This document shows, piece after piece, positions 9,260-42,486 of a stretch of 64,000 bases of DNA (positions are counted from its first letter, which is position 1; every line of letters starts with the position of its first letter). The notes under the pieces were generated by a model. It made no database searches and was not told the DNA's origin. It saw nothing but the letters and a program-made list of their open reading frames with translations. Origin of the DNA: Candidatus Heimdallarchaeota archaeon (GTDB taxonomy: Archaea > Asgardarchaeota > Heimdallarchaeia > Hodarchaeales > Hodarchaeaceae); the NCBI GenBank assembly GCA_011364965.1, contig RDOB01000001.1, positions 96,001 to 160,000 on the forward strand. Reading direction: 5' to 3'. Made by a program: the position numbers and the translations under genes.

Positions 9260-9904
9260 ATGAATCTAGAAATTAATAATACAGATGAGGAGGACTATAT
9301 TCCCAAATTAGAGTTTAATATGGATAATCTATACATTTCTATTTGTGATCCTCAAGCAAAAAGTATTTTTAATAATGGATACTTTGGCCAATGGACATCA
9401 GAAGCTGAAGATGAGCTCAAATTGGAACCAGAAGAGATACTTCTTCTTTTAGATAGAGCTCGAATTGAAGTATATCATTCAGAAAACGGAAACCTAATTT
9501 CCCAAAGTGAACTCGTAGCTCATTTTTCCAAAAAGGTTCAGAATTTCTGGAGCAGGTATCTCGTTTATAAAGATTTGAGAAACAGAGGTTACGTGGTTAG
9601 GATTGGAACACGAATAACAGCTCCTTTTCGAATATATCCGAGGGGTAGTAAACCAGGTGAAGCTGTCAGCAAAATTGTCGTGTTTCCGATGCCAGAAGGT
9701 GAGGATTTAAATCTTGATTTTCTTGATCAAATAGTTAAACAAGCAAAAATTGACAGAAAAAAGTTGCTTCTTTCTGTTATAGATAGTTTAGGAGATGTAA
9801 CATATTATCAGGCATCTCAATTAGAGTTAGAACCCAACGAACTCGAATATGAATATCGAGATGAACTCCGTGTGGAGGATCAAAACCTAGAGGAGGAGAA
9901 ATAA
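9260..9904 (+). CDS. endA: tRNA splicing (intron) endonuclease subunit
   Basis: YLVYKDLRNRGYVVR, FRIYPRG and GDVTYY motifs; several catalytic positions look divergent, so it may be a structural subunit. Confidence 0.85.
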   Translation: MNLEINNTDEEDYIPKLEFNMDNLYISICDPQAKSIFNNGYFGQWTSEAEDELKLEPEEILLLLDRARIEVYHSENGNLISQSELVAHFSKKVQNFWSRYLVYKDLRNRGYVVRIGTRITAPFRIYPRGSKPGEAVSKIVVFPMPEGEDLNLDFLDQIVKQAKIDRKKLLLSVIDSLGDVTYYQASQLELEPNELEYEYRDELRVEDQNLEEEK

Positions 9905-17946: not shown

Positions 17947-18019
17947 GCCGCTGTGGCTTAGTTGGTAGAGCGACAGACTCGTAATCTGTTGGCCGGGGGT
18001 TCAAGTCCCCCCAGCGGCT
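17947..18019 (+). tRNA. tRNA-Thr(CGT)
   Basis: GCCGCTG/CAGCGGC acceptor; ACAGA-CT-CGT-AA-TCTGT; GGTTCAAGTCC. Confidence 0.95.
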
Positions 18020-40224: not shown

Positions 40225-41136
40225 CTAGAGATAGTTAATTCTTTTTGCTCTAGCAAGATTAATAAATTCTTGAATCTCTGAATATGAACAGTGATCGGAA
40301 TAAGGGAAGAAATGGACGTTAAAAGCTTTTTTACGTAATTTTAAACTCCATCCTGTTGGAGAAATGCGAAGAGCTTCAATTAATTTAATCTTGTTGTCCT
40401 CAGAAATCCCATGTAAATTCTCTACAACTCGTCGGGAATCAACATAAACTCCAGTTCCTCCTTCAGAAGTAAAAATGTCCCACTCCCCTCCAATTTCTTT
40501 ATATATCCTTTCTTTCAATTCCGAGGCAGTAATTTTGACTTTAAGCGCCTGACTCACTGTTCTAAGAAGAAGTTCCTTTCCTATTTGATATGAAGCAATC
40601 CAAATATCTCTTTCAGGAAAATTCCCCGATGATAAAATCAATGTGACTATCTGAGAAATCATTTCTTCTCTAGAAGGAAAATCAAATCTTGAATCAGCTC
40701 CATAGGTATTATCGAGCCAGAGTTGATCAGCTCCTTGCAATAAATCTCTTTCTTTGCGCATAGAATCCCCCATTCGAAAATCACCTGTATAAATTTCCTT
40801 TAATCCAGTTTTTGATTCGATTACATACATCAAACTACCAACACAATGATTTGCATCAATTGCATGTACTATGAAGTCATCGAAATCCAAAGACTGATTA
40901 GGATTTACTATCAAGCACTTTTCTTTGGGAATATTGCATAGAAAACGGATTACTGATGATGTCTCATCAGAACATACAATTATTACATCAGGATCTGAAA
41001 GACTATATTTGATACCAGAAAGATGATCCGAATGAGCATGAGATAGAAAAAAGTATTGAGAAGATTTTCTACGACTATCTTTTCGTCGAAAGGGAAATTC
41101 ATCAAAATAGCTCTCTGCAATATGTGAAAAAACCAT
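40225..41136 (-). CDS. SNM1/Apollo/Artemis-type beta-CASP DNA nuclease
   Basis: FLSHAHSDH, DANHCVGS, YTGDFR, LDNTY, FPSRE, YQIGKE, PTGWS, PYSDHCSYSE motifs. Confidence 0.85.
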   Translation of the reverse strand: MVFSHIAESYFDEFPFRRKDSRRKSSQYFFLSHAHSDHLSGIKYSLSDPDVIIVCSDETSSVIRFLCNIPKEKCLIVNPNQSLDFDDFIVHAIDANHCVGSLMYVIESKTGLKEIYTGDFRMGDSMRKERDLLQGADQLWLDNTYGADSRFDFPSREEMISQIVTLILSSGNFPERDIWIASYQIGKELLLRTVSQALKVKITASELKERIYKEIGGEWDIFTSEGGTGVYVDSRRVVENLHGISEDNKIKLIEALRISPTGWSLKLRKKAFNVHFFPYSDHCSYSEIQEFINLARAKRINYL

Positions 41137-41341
41137 TCTTTCAAACCCTTGTAATCAAATTACCCAATAGCAAAGGAGACTTCTTAATATCTACAAAATG
41201 CAAAGCATATATTTTTTTGTTGGTATTATAAACAATTCTATTATTTTATTATTTCTATACCCGTAAATTCATTTTCTAGACATATAAGCTTACCAATAGA
41301 GGATAAGAGCGAAATAATTTCAAAGGATGTGAAAAAGAAGG

Positions 41342-41350
41342 AAAAAAAAA
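41342..41350 (-). terminator. Oligo-T terminator downstream of the 5S precursor
   Basis: A9 on + strand (U9 in transcript) just after the trailer stem. Confidence 0.55.
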
Positions 41351-41385
41351 TAATAATGTTACGCTTATGCCAAGGAGAGTTCTGT

Positions 41386-41506
41386 TTCCGGGTTCGGAAC
41401 GAGACCGGGTGTTCCTCAGGCCCTTTGGCCGGGCAAGTACCCAGCTTTCCGATGTTCCCGTAGGCGCTAGCACAACAGTACAGATCGGAACGGAGCCTAA
41501 CTTAAC
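41386..41506 (-). rRNA. rrf: 5S rRNA, circularly permuted (canonical 3' half 41506-41439, ACUU linker 41438-41435, canonical 5' half 41434-41386)
   Basis: Transcript reads GUUAAGUUAGGCUCCGUUCCGAUCUGUACUG...GGGAACAUCGGAAAGCUGGGU-ACUU-GCCCGGCCAAAGGGCCUGAGGAACACCCGGUCUCGUUCCGAACCCGGAA; 5S helices can be formed by hand. Confidence 0.92.
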
Positions 41507-41585
41507 TTTCGGCAGAATCTCGCAAAACTCGGCGTAACGCGTTGATTGGTGAGATTACACACCAATACGGGCACAATCAAGAATC

Positions 41586-41593
41586 TTTATAAA
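41586..41593 (-). promoter_or_regulatory. TATA box candidate for the 5S precursor
   Basis: TTTATAAA about 48 nt upstream of the leader stem; palindromic, so it could also serve mptE. Confidence 0.5.
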
Positions 41594-41658
41594 TTTACTT
41601 GTCTCTAGTTTATTTACATTAATTTGCTTTAGATATAATATTTCAAGAGATCACCCCA

Positions 41659-42486
41659 ATGGAATGGAGCGACTGGAAAAATAGATATTTGGATATACTT
41701 GAACGCTTAAAAATTAAACAAAAAGATGATGAAGCATCTGCAAAGTTATTAGAACAGCATTTGGAAAGTTTTATGATAATTTCGAGGAGTAGAATTCACC
41801 AAGAACTAGTAAAAATATTTAAAAGGCCAATAATCGTTGCAGGAGCTGGCCCATCTTTAGAATCTGATTTAATTCAAATTAAAAAGCTGGAAATGCAAAA
41901 ATTCGCTCATATAATAACAGCTGATGGTGCTACAACTGCTTTTCGACTAAATAACATTATACCGAAAGTAGTTGTTACAGATCTCGATGGAGAATTAAAA
42001 TCAATTTTTTGGGCTTTAAGAAAAAGAGCTCTTATTCTCATACACGCTCACGGAGATAACCCCCATCTGATTTCGATGTTTTTTAGAAAGTATGGCTCAA
42101 AGTTATATAACGCAATGCTCTGGGGAACCAGTCAAAGTGATCCTGGAAAAACACTTTTTAATTTTGGGGGATTTACTGACGGAGATCGTGCTATATTCCT
42201 TGGATTCCATTTTCAAGCACCTCTAATAGGTCTTATTGGCTTTGATTTTGGAACAAAGATTGGAAAATTTAGTACCTATAAAACTGAATTATTAAATAAA
42301 GATTTGAATCAAAAAATTACGAAACTGAATATTGCAATAGACCTCCTGACGGAATTTTATCCAAAACATAATGGTTTGCGATATAATTTAACTTCATCAG
42401 GTTTCTCAGTTCCAGGATTCCCAAATATCAGTTTTAAAGACTTTCATCAAAAGGTTTTTGAATACAAAATGTCACATGATATATAG
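41659..42486 (+). CDS. mptE: 6-hydroxymethyl-7,8-dihydropterin pyrophosphokinase (MptE-like)
   Basis: GAGPSL, ADGAT, VTDLDG, HAHGDN, FGGFTDGDRA motifs. Confidence 0.92.
   Translation: MEWSDWKNRYLDILERLKIKQKDDEASAKLLEQHLESFMIISRSRIHQELVKIFKRPIIVAGAGPSLESDLIQIKKLEMQKFAHIITADGATTAFRLNNIIPKVVVTDLDGELKSIFWALRKRALILIHAHGDNPHLISMFFRKYGSKLYNAMLWGTSQSDPGKTLFNFGGFTDGDRAIFLGFHFQAPLIGLIGFDFGTKIGKFSTYKTELLNKDLNQKITKLNIAIDLLTEFYPKHNGLRYNLTSSGFSVPGFPNISFKDFHQKVFEYKMSHDI

What the first reader, a model, noticed from the sequence alone, without database searches (positions are those of the whole stretch)
41386..41506. Circularly permuted 5S rRNA gene
Seen in sequence: on the minus strand the canonical 3' half (GUUAAG...AAGCUGGGU, 41506-41439) comes before the canonical 5' half (GCCCGGCCA...GAACCCGGAA, 41434-41386). 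The normal 3' and 5' ends are linked by ACUU, which caps helix I (GCUGGGU/GCCCGGC) as a hairpin. The break falls inside the conserved CCCGGAA|GUUAAG motif. Helix II (GGGCCUGA/UUAGGCUC) and helix V (UUCCGAU/AUCGGAA) pair, so the gene looks functional rather than decayed. Established knowledge: permuted tRNA genes and permuted or circular SRP RNA occur in some archaea, and permuted 5S-like RNAs are known from some organelles. I do not know of a permuted 5S gene on an archaeal chromosome. Inference: standard 5S models would score this as two fragments or miss it.
Basis: partly seen in the sequence, partly recalled or inferred. Interest (0 to 1): 0.97.

Follow-up and report, generated by a model that had tools for sequence, protein, structure and literature searches.

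The report
Permuted 5S rRNA gene, ring-forming
This Hodarchaeales (Asgard) archaeon encodes its only detectable 5S ribosomal RNA with the back half before the front half, between tRNA-intron-type cut signals, so a normal 5S fold arises only after cutting and re-joining (most likely into a 121-base closed ring), which explains why 5S genes look missing in these relatives of eukaryotes.

Summary
On the minus strand, 41506-41439 is the 3' part of a 5S rRNA, 41438-41435 (ACUU) caps helix I, and 41434-41386 is the 5' part.

- **Standard models miss it.** Rfam finds no 5S above threshold in the window or the whole genome.
- **Re-permutation restores it.** The re-ordered sequence aligns end to end to a profile of canonical Asgard 5S (58.6 bits). 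The native order gives two swapped pieces that meet at profile position 50|51.
- **It is conserved.** The layout occurs in at least 17 related assemblies, including single-contig genomes. In a 151-genome sample of the phylum, 79 genomes are permuted, 48 canonical, 24 have neither detected, and none has both. All five helices covary.
- **New here: a splice signal.** Leader and trailer form a covarying bulge-helix-bulge motif. The cut rule, checked on this genome's own tRNA introns, excises exactly 41506-41386, and joining the ends restores the canonical CCCGGAA-GUUAAG. The genome encodes two splicing-endonuclease paralogs and RtcB.
- **The cap looks structural.** Helix-I caps are UNCG tetraloops in 19 of 36 lineages, which suggests the ring is not reopened.

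I found no published report. This scan has noted the same feature before on other DNA, in at least 117 genomes.

The parts
41586..41593 (-). Archaeal TATA box (TTTATAAA), 80-87 nt upstream of the first ring nucleotide. The transcript start is predicted roughly 25 nt downstream, giving a leader of about 55-60 nt.
   Evidence: A TTTATA, TATAAA or TTTAAA box sits at the same distance in 13 of the 15 genus members listed. The sequence is read. The start site is inferred, not mapped.
41513..41521 (-). Leader strand of the outer processing helix (GAGAUUCUG). It pairs with the trailer at 41376-41384.
   Evidence: All 9 aligned pairs show compensatory changes across 17 sequences. RNAalifold predicts this helix independently. 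At phylum level it is 97.6% paired, with 9 of 9 pairs covarying. In this genome the helix needs one bulged A (my reading).
41509..41512 (-). Leader strand of the central 4-nt BHB helix (CCGA). It pairs with CCGG at 41388-41391 as 3 bp plus an A.C mismatch in this genome.
   Evidence: In one search, alignment columns 13-16 pair with 136-139. Nine of 17 sequences have a full 4-bp helix. G021 carries a compensatory CUGG/CCAG. Other lineages have CGUG/CACG, CUGG/UCGG, CCGA/UCGG and GCCG/CGGC.
41506..41508 (-). 5' bulge AA|G. The predicted cut is between 41507 and 41506, so 41506 (G of GUUAAG) is the first nucleotide of the excised RNA.
   Evidence: Geometry. The cut rule (after the second bulge nucleotide) was checked on this genome's own tRNA-Met and tRNA-Asn introns.
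41439..41506 (-). Canonical 3' part of 5S: loop B 3' side, helix II 3' strand, helix V, loop E, helix IV, loop D and helix I 3' strand.
   Evidence: HMM of canonical Asgard 5S, positions 51-114. Rfam partial alignment. Pair counts.
41435..41438 (-). ACUU loop joining the canonical 3' and 5' ends, closing helix I as a hairpin.
   Evidence: Helix I has 7 pairs, 100% paired, 3 with compensatory change. In other lineages the cap is a UNCG tetraloop in 19 of 36 cases.
41386..41434 (-). Canonical 5' part of 5S: helix I 5' strand, loop A, helix II 5' strand, helix III and loop C.
   Evidence: HMM positions 3-50. Rfam model 27-51 matches 41410-41386 at 19.6 bits.
41385..41387 (-). 3' bulge AA|A. The predicted cut is between 41386 and 41385, so 41386 is the last nucleotide of the excised RNA.
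41388..41391 (-). CCGG with two roles: 3' strand of helix III in the mature fold, and partner of the leader's CCGA in the precursor BHB (a structural switch).
   Evidence: In G021 the change to CCAG is matched both in the helix III 5' strand (CCUGG) and in the leader (CUGG).
41376..41384 (-). Trailer strand of the outer processing helix (CAGAACUCU).
41342..41350 (-). Run of nine T, the likely archaeal transcription terminator after the trailer.
   Evidence: Sequence. T-rich stretches follow the trailer in the homologues. Its function is inferred.
9260..9904 (+). One of two splicing-endonuclease (EndA) paralog genes of this genome, a candidate for the enzyme that cuts the BHB. It is not physically linked to the 5S gene.
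   Evidence: Pfam tRNA_int_endo (62.8 bits) plus tRNA_int_endo_N.

Best explanation
This is the organism's working 5S rRNA gene, encoded in circularly permuted order.

Proposed pathway:
1. It is transcribed on the minus strand from its own TATA promoter, with a leader of about 55-60 nt and a trailer that ends at a T-run.
2. Leader and trailer pair into an outer helix. A 4-nt leader segment mimics the 5' strand of helix III and pairs with the CCGG at the 3' end of the gene.
3. This gives a bulge-helix-bulge motif with two 3-nt bulges (AAG and AAA).
4. The tRNA splicing endonuclease cuts in both bulges and releases exactly 41506-41386.
5. RtcB joins the new ends, which recreates the universal ...CCCGGAA-GUUAAG... 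stretch of loop B.

The product is a 121-nt covalently closed RNA with the full canonical 5S fold. Helix I is closed by ACUU instead of having free ends. Because the cap is tiny here and a hyperstable UNCG tetraloop in many relatives, the ring is most likely not reopened and is the form built into the ribosome.

Shown: the permuted order, conservation, covariation of every helix and of the processing stem, BHB geometry, presence of the enzymes, and absence of a normal 5S.
Inferred: cleavage, ligation, and the ring as the mature ribosomal form.
For: 1. **Order.** Native sequence gives two swapped HMM pieces that meet at profile position 50|51. The re-permuted sequence aligns end to end at 58.6 bits. 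The Rfam fragments are also in swapped order.
2. **No normal 5S.** None is found in G000 or in 40 relatives, including single-contig genomes. The two 80-bit hits lie beside bacterial 23S rRNA.
3. **Conservation.** A covariance model of the permuted gene gives full-length hits of 35-182 bits in 79 of 151 phylum genomes. Rfam's 5S model passes its threshold in 48 others. No genome has both.
4. **Named hits.** These include Hodarchaeota, the closed Heimdallarchaeum genomes, Odinarchaeia, Njordarchaeum, Atabeyarchaeia and Helarchaeota.
5. **Covariation.** 99.8% of cells pair and 10 pairs are compensatory within the genus. At phylum level 94.9% pair and 37 of 42 pairs are compensatory.
6. **Processing stem.** All 9 outer pairs covary. 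The central helix covaries together with helix III.
7. **Junction restored in two registers.** CCGG AA|G + CCGG AA|A, and CGUG AA|A + CACG GA|A, both restore GGAA-GUUAAG.
8. **Cut rule.** It reproduces this genome's own tRNA-Met intron exactly and gives a correct tRNA-Asn anticodon loop.
9. **Enzymes.** Two EndA paralogs and RtcB are present.
10. **Cap.** UNCG in 19 of 36 lineages and GNRA in 1.
11. **Transcription signals.** A conserved TATA box and a T-run.
12. **Precedent.** The permuted SRP RNA of Thermoproteus is cut at a BHB and circularised (PMC4731332).
Against: - Cutting, joining, ring form and ribosome incorporation are all inferred.
- In this genome the central helix is 3 bp plus an A.C mismatch, and the outer helix needs a bulged A. 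The motif is therefore relaxed and needs a tolerant endonuclease.
- The genome is 87% complete, so absence of a second 5S gene rests partly on the complete genomes of relatives.
- A recent survey of archaeal rRNA circularisation states that 5S rRNAs are not processed through circles (PMC12918454). Circular 5S species seen in other archaea were read as degradation products (PMC12558985).
- Infernal could not be run on the re-permuted sequence. The end-to-end test is by sequence profile only.
Confidence: 0.7

Rival explanations
1. Same functional permuted gene and same BHB cuts, but the mature 5S is linear. Either the ring is only an intermediate that is nicked in the helix-I cap to give near-canonical ends (as in permuted tRNA genes), or the cut ends are never joined and the ribosome carries a permuted linear 5S with its ends in loop B.
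For: - Permuted tRNA genes are expressed through a circular intermediate that is then opened (cited in PMC4267664).
- Archaeal 16S rRNA circles, and many 23S circles, are re-linearised (PMC12918454).
- Brown-algal mitochondrial 5S is permuted in the final product.
- None of my results measures RNA topology.
Against: - Caps are only 3-5 nt in this genus and UNCG tetraloops in 19 of 36 lineages. They share no sequence that could serve as a cut signal, and there is no tRNA-like element for RNase P or tRNase Z.
- The nick position shifts by one nucleotide between lineages, while the joined sequence GGAA-GUUAAG stays constant. This fits selection on the joined product.
- RtcB is present, and it joins endonuclease products in the known cases.
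Confidence: 0.2
2. The locus is a rearranged pseudogene or an assembly artefact, and the real 5S gene is unassembled or too divergent to detect.
For: G000 is a 16-contig assembly at 87% completeness, and rRNA genes are often missing from metagenome-assembled genomes.
Against: - The same order occurs in 79 sampled genomes, including single-contig and closed chromosomes that lack any canonical 5S.
- Compensatory changes in every helix and in the processing stem show selection on structure.
- Promoter and terminator are conserved.
- Permuted and canonical genes never co-occur.
Confidence: 0.02
3. The RNA is 5S-derived but has been recruited for another role, for example a regulatory or decoy RNA that binds 5S-binding proteins, and is not the ribosomal 5S.
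For: No direct evidence. It is considered only because ribosome incorporation was not tested.
Against: - All universally conserved 5S elements are kept (loop C, the loop E GUAC/GGGAA, loop A CA(A/U)AG).
- No other 5S candidate exists in complete genomes of the group.
- There are one or two copies per genome, like a normal 5S.
Confidence: 0.03

Closest known systems
Permuted, circularised SRP RNA gene of Thermoproteus tenax / T. uzoniensis (Plagens et al. 2015, eLife; PMC4731332, read)
   Same: An essential, universally conserved structural RNA is encoded in permuted order. Leader and trailer form a BHB that is cut by the tRNA splicing endonuclease. Ligation of the new ends restores a conserved functional element. 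Standard covariance models miss the gene.
   Different: A different RNA (5S rRNA, a ribosome component). It is spread across a large part of a phylum (79 of 151 sampled Asgard genomes) rather than a few species of one genus. In Thermoproteus the ring and the cleavage were shown experimentally; here they are inferred.
Circularly permuted tRNA genes (Cyanidioschyzon merolae, Soma et al. 2007, as cited in PMC4267664; also some Thermoproteales, from my own knowledge)
   Same: The 3' part of the gene precedes the 5' part, the native ends are joined by a short intervening sequence, BHB processing of the flanks occurs, and a circular RNA is formed.
   Different: There the circle is an intermediate, opened by RNase P and tRNase Z at the linker. 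Here the linker is a 3-5 nt loop or a UNCG tetraloop with no such processing signal.
Permuted mitochondrial 5S rRNA of brown algae and other stramenopiles (Valach et al. 2014; PMC4267664)
   Same: A 5S rRNA whose helix I is replaced by a closed hairpin, and which conventional models miss.
   Different: It is organellar. The ends lie at the junction of domains alpha and gamma (the three-way junction), not in loop B. The final product stays linear and permuted. There is no BHB and no re-joining.
Circular pre-16S/23S rRNA, circular 23S rRNA in ribosomes, and RNA-level permuted 23S rRNA of Pyrococcus/Thermococcus (PMC12918454, PMC7758197)
   Same: BHB cleavage in a processing stem followed by RtcB-type ligation of rRNA. 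In some lineages the circle persists in the ribosome.
   Different: Those genes are collinear with the canonical rRNA, so circularisation joins the normal ends. Here the gene itself is permuted and circularisation is needed to create the canonical backbone. That literature states that 5S is not processed this way.
Canonical stand-alone archaeal 5S genes, including those of other Asgard families (f11, f15, f17, f20, f27, f28)
   Same: The same RNA: after re-permutation it aligns end to end. Each is a single small gene with its own TATA box and T-run.
   Different: In the four families folded (f15, f17, f20, f28), canonical genes start about 25 nt after the TATA box, end at the T-run, and have no leader/trailer stem or BHB. 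They score 45-85 bits with Rfam's model, against 19.6 bits or less here.

Membership tests
5S rRNA (Rfam RF00001) | Three-domain fold: helices I-V around a three-way junction, supported by base pairing | tested here: met
   All helices pair in 99.8% of cells, with 10 compensatory pairs. At phylum level 94.9% pair, with 37 of 42 pairs compensatory.
5S rRNA (Rfam RF00001) | End-to-end sequence similarity to known 5S, including the loop A, C and E motifs | tested here: met
   Met only after re-permutation: HMM of canonical Asgard 5S, positions 5-114 of 119, 58.6 bits, E 7.8e-20.
5S rRNA (Rfam RF00001) | Collinear gene scoring at or above the curated 38-bit threshold | tested here: not met
   Native order gives 19.6 and 12.7 bits. 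Nothing reaches the gathering score in the window or the genome. This failure is the signature of the permutation, not of a different RNA. Infernal on the re-permuted sequence could not be run.
5S rRNA (Rfam RF00001) | Component of the large ribosomal subunit | not testable with these tools
   Needs purified ribosomes or a structure.
BHB substrates of the archaeal splicing endonuclease | Central 4-bp helix | tested here: inconclusive
   In this genome it is CCGA/CCGG, i.e. 3 bp plus an A.C mismatch. It is a full 4 bp in 9 of 17 close relatives and in most other lineages. The definition is taken from PMC7714728.
BHB substrates of the archaeal splicing endonuclease | Two 3-nt bulges on opposite strands, each 3' of its central-helix strand | tested here: met
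   AAG (41508-41506) and AAA (41387-41385). The geometry is the same as in this genome's own tRNA-Met and tRNA-Asn introns.
BHB substrates of the archaeal splicing endonuclease | Flanking helices (h and h') | tested here: met
   The outer helix has 9 aligned pairs, all covarying. The inner helix is 2-3 bp (UU/AA).
BHB substrates of the archaeal splicing endonuclease | Cleavage by the endonuclease | not testable with these tools
   The enzyme genes are present: two EndA paralogs and RtcB.
Permuted RNA genes rescued by circularisation (Thermoproteus SRP RNA type) | Gene halves in swapped order, with the native ends linked | tested here: met
Permuted RNA genes rescued by circularisation (Thermoproteus SRP RNA type) | The ligated junction restores a conserved element of the canonical RNA | tested here: met
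   The predicted junction CCCGGAA^GUUAAG equals the canonical sequence (profile positions 44-56). It is restored in both BHB registers across lineages.
Permuted RNA genes rescued by circularisation (Thermoproteus SRP RNA type) | Circular RNA present in cells | not tested
Earlier notes of this scan claim junction reads for other genomes, but I did not check them.
Organelle-type permuted 5S (mtPerm-5S, brown algae) | Ends located at the three-way junction between domains alpha and gamma; linear permuted product | tested here: not met
   The break here lies in loop B, between helices III and II (profile 50|51), and the flanks carry a BHB. The comparison is with the description in PMC4267664.

The most novel reading that the evidence does not exclude
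In most Asgard lineages, including the Hodarchaeales placed closest to eukaryotes, the ribosome carries a covalently closed circular 5S rRNA made by the tRNA-splicing machinery from a permuted gene. The breakpoint is the same everywhere, which points to a single ancient origin. If so, the gene layout is a discrete character that splits Asgard lineages into permuted and canonical groups. The eukaryotic stem lineage then either branched from a canonical-5S lineage or restored the linear gene order.
Probability: 0.5. Interest if true: 0.95.

Novelty: new variant of a known kind. Interest (0 to 1): 0.88.

Why it matters
- **Missing genes explained.** 5S rRNA is a universal ribosome component, and its gene is normally trivial to find. 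Here it is invisible to standard annotation, which accounts for 'missing' 5S genes in complete genomes of Heimdall-group and many other Asgard archaea. A simple permuted covariance model recovers them.
- **A new dependence.** An essential rRNA would depend on the tRNA-splicing endonuclease and ligase, and some ribosomes would contain a covalently circular rRNA whose gene is not collinear with the RNA.
- **A phylogenetic character.** In my sample, permuted and canonical genes are mutually exclusive between families and share one breakpoint. The layout is therefore a rare-genomic-change character that can be scored on any genome. It bears directly on how Asgard lineages, and the lineage leading to eukaryotes (which have collinear 5S genes), relate to one another.
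- **Published status.** I found no published description in the held library.

Tried and rejected
1. **RNA and read evidence.** I did not try to get round this.
2. **Infernal with RF00001 on the re-permuted sequence.** I looked for a natural tandem copy that would contain the canonical order. G139 looked promising (a 38.4-bit 'full-length' hit), but it is only the 5' half of another permuted gene followed by unrelated sequence. An nhmmer test replaced it.
3. **Canonical 5S in relatives G006 and G023 (80 bits).** Rejected as contamination, because both lie directly after bacterial 23S rRNA.
4. **Unconstrained BHB search.** It picked a spurious site in G000 and in Heimdallarchaeaceae. With the ring length fixed it gave the expected site for most sequences. 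Five sequences failed there only because of an alignment gap, and one search shows perfect motifs for them.
5. **Neighbouring genes as functional partners.** The MptE-like and metallo-beta-lactamase/DRMBL neighbours are syntenic only within the genus, and the 5S gene is inverted between them in G001. I infer no functional link.
6. **A BHB at canonical Asgard 5S genes** (a possible pre-adaptation). None was found.
8. **Chance matches.** That pattern scan also returned many chance matches in bacteria, which the covariance model rejected.

Full report
**1. The observation**

Read on the minus strand, 41506-41439 is GUUAAGUUAGGCUC…GGGAACAUCGGAAAGCUGGGU. Then comes ACUU (41438-41435). Then 41434-41386 is GCCCGGCCAAAGGGCCUGAGGAACACCCGGUCUCGUUCCGAACCCGGAA.

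Rfam finds no 5S at its gathering score in the window or in the whole 2.97-Mb, 16-contig, 87%-complete genome. In E-value mode it reports only fragments:
- model positions 27-51 at 41410-41386, 19.6 bits;
- a forced alignment of the 3' part at 41532-41439, 12.7 bits.

The fragment for the later part of the model lies upstream of the fragment for the earlier part.

**2. Re-permutation test**

The Rfam tool cannot take a constructed sequence, so I built an HMM from 17 distinct canonical 5S genes of other Asgard families and searched with nhmmer.
- Native sequence: profile 51-114 matches nt 1-66 (21.4 bits), and profile 3-50 matches nt 73-121 (16.1 bits).
- Re-permuted sequence: one alignment over profile 5-114 of 119 (58.6 bits, E 7.8e-20).

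The breakpoint is exactly at CCCGGAA|GUUAAG.

**3. Not an artefact or a relic**

The same order, at 81-95% identity, is present in nearly all 21 sampled species of the same genus, including three single-contig genomes. None of these has a normal 5S. The only two 80-bit Rfam hits among the genus- and order-level relatives lie directly after bacterial 23S rRNA, so they are contaminating contigs.

On a MAFFT alignment of 17 homologues (A1):
- RNAalifold independently predicts helices I, II, IV and V and a leader-trailer helix;
- 99.8% of cells pair across helices I-V, 10 pairs have compensatory changes, and 0 of 500 shuffles reach this.

Helix I, closed by the cap, changes from GGGU/GCCC to GAGU/GCUC, GAAG/CUUC and GCAC/GUGC.

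**4. Distribution**

I built a covariance model of the permuted gene plus the outer helix (R1) and searched 151 genomes drawn evenly from the phylum.

| Result | Genomes | Where |
|---|---|---|
| Full-length R1 hit, 35-182 bits | 79 | 19 families, including every family of this class with a detectable gene |
| Rfam 5S above threshold | 48 | six other families: f11 25/26, f17 17/19, f20 3/5, f15, f27, f28 |
| Neither detected | 24 | |
| Both | 0 | |

One apparent exception, G139 at 38.4 bits, is the 5' half of a permuted gene.

A pattern scan of about 185,000 species genomes, re-scored with R1, names the carriers:
- Hodarchaeota and Hodarchaeum mangrovi (142-180 bits, the window's group);
- the closed chromosomes of Heimdallarchaeum aukensis and H. 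endolithica;
- the closed chromosome of Atabeyarchaeia-1;
- Odinarchaeia, Njordarchaeum, Helarchaeota and Asgardarchaeum abyssi.

The breakpoint is the same in all of them, which argues for a single origin. On the phylum-level alignment, which is fitted to the model and so leans that way, 94.9% of cells pair and 37 of 42 pairs are compensatory.

**5.

The leader GAGAUUCUG (41521-41513) pairs with the trailer CAGAACUCU (41384-41376). All nine aligned pairs covary within the genus. In distant lineages the helix is kept with entirely different sequences, for example GCAGUGGAG/CUCCAUUGC.

Between this helix and the gene:
- the leader carries CCGA (CCGG in half of the genus), which pairs with the CCGG that otherwise forms the 3' strand of helix III;
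- each strand then has a 3-nt bulge, AAG on the leader side and AAA on the trailer side.

This is the bulge-helix-bulge geometry (a 4-bp helix flanked by two 3-nt bulges; PMC7714728).

In G021 a change of the 3' strand to CCAG is matched in both partners: CCUGG in helix III and CUGG in the leader. Other lineages use CGUG/CACG, CUGG/UCGG, CCGA/UCGG or GCCG/CGGC.

I checked the cut rule (after the second bulge nucleotide on each strand) on this genome's own tRNAs. It reproduces the ARAGORN intron of tRNA-Met exactly (nt 40-62) and gives a correct anticodon loop for tRNA-Asn.

Applied here, the rule releases exactly 41506-41386, and joining the ends gives …CCCGGAA-GUUAAG…. Two registers occur in the phylum (…CCGG AA|G with …CCGG AA|A, and …CGUG AA|A with …CACG GA|A). 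Both restore GGAA-GUUAAG. The nick position moves, but the joined product does not.

The genome encodes two endonuclease paralogs and RtcB:
- each paralog has the N-terminal and catalytic domains;
- one paralog is in this window at 9260-9904.

Two separate paralogs suggest a heteromeric enzyme, the type reported to accept relaxed motifs. That would suit the A.C mismatch in this genome's central helix. This last step is inference.

**6. Transcription signals**

A TATA box (TTTATAAA, 41593-41586) lies 80-87 nt upstream of the ring. It is conserved in position in 13 of the 15 genus members listed. A run of nine T follows the trailer (41350-41342).

In the four canonical families I folded (f15, f17, f20, f28), the 5S gene starts about 25 nt after its TATA box, ends at a T-run, and has no leader/trailer stem. 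The gene here lies in an intergenic gap (41137-41658). The mechanical 65-aa ORF across it is spurious.

**7. What the mature RNA is**

The default outcome of endonuclease plus RtcB on an excised segment is a circle, as shown for the permuted SRP RNA of Thermoproteus (PMC4731332).

Whether the circle is then reopened cannot be decided without RNA data. The helix-I cap argues against it:
- it is 3-5 nt in this genus;
- it is a UNCG tetraloop in 19 of 36 lineages and GNRA in one more, against a chance expectation of about 2% (my own estimate: 4 of the 256 possible tetraloops);
- it has no shared sequence and no tRNA-like element.

I therefore favour a 121-nt closed ring as the ribosomal 5S. A linear end product gets about 20%.

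**8. Comparison with what is known**

The mechanism is that of the Thermoproteus SRP RNA and of permuted tRNA genes. The RNA is new for this mechanism, and the spread (about half of a sampled phylum) is far larger.

The permuted mitochondrial 5S of brown algae differs:
- its ends lie at the three-way junction;
- it has no BHB;
- its product is linear.

Published surveys of archaeal rRNA circularisation state that 5S is not processed through circles. Five further full-text searches found no report of a permuted or circular 5S gene in Asgard archaea.

Earlier AI notes of this scan describe the same feature in at least 117 other genomes, and some claim junction reads in environmental RNA. I formed my reading before seeing them. 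I re-tested the layout, the BHB and the distribution myself, but I could not test the RNA claims.

**9. Verdict**

This is a real, conserved, functional 5S rRNA gene in permuted order with a splicing-type processing signal. It is a new variant of a known kind of system and of high interest. The ring as the mature form remains to be shown.

Noticed in passing
L066:1501-1685 (G001) and L050 (G016), same genus: The permuted 5S gene carries a 30-nt insertion in loop C / helix III. The insertion is flanked by a BHB-like motif (UCCG AA|A … CGGG AA|C). Excising it would restore exactly CUCAUUCCGAA^CCCGGAA, so it may be a splicing-type intron inside a 5S gene. In G001 the 5S gene is also inverted relative to its conserved neighbours.
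   Followed up: partly
L004 about 1506-1545 (Heimdallarchaeum), L029, L027, L147: In Heimdallarchaeaceae the leader has an extra conserved hairpin (for example CUGGAUGUGUUCCAG) inserted between the outer helix and the central BHB helix. The outer helix partner therefore lies about 40 nt upstream. Its function is unknown.
   Followed up: partly
L118 (DATKTP010000169.1, labelled Candidatus Deferrimicrobium sp., 10.5-kb contig): A contig binned as a bacterium carries a 90.8-bit permuted 5S gene. Its cap and BHB are nearly identical to the Helarchaeota copy, so it is probably a misbinned Asgard contig.
   Followed up: no
L002 (G023:C798) and L003 (G006:C310): Short contigs in two Asgard assemblies hold a bacterial 23S rRNA 3' end followed by a canonical 80-bit 5S. 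This is bacterial contamination that could be mistaken for the archaeon's 5S.
   Followed up: yes
G139 contigs C77, C90, C106, C132 (L082, L231-L233): Four contigs of one genome end inside near-identical permuted 5S genes. This suggests several gene copies that break the assembly.
   Followed up: partly
L044:1098-1223 (G009:C16): About 400 nt upstream of the complete gene there is a second, partial copy (78% identity). It covers the promoter region, the leader and the first ~50 nt of the 5S gene.
   Followed up: no
whole genome G000; window 17947-18019: ARAGORN finds only 26 tRNA genes in the genome, 10 of them with predicted introns (three of those 'introns' exceed 1 kb and are doubtful). It also misses the 74-bit tRNA that Rfam finds at window 17947-18019. 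tRNA genes here seem heavily interrupted, which fits heavy use of the splicing machinery.
   Followed up: no
window 40225-41136 (-) and 41659-42486 (+): The 5S gene lies between a metallo-beta-lactamase/DRMBL-fold protein gene and an MptE-like kinase gene. This synteny is conserved across the genus but not beyond it.
   Followed up: partly
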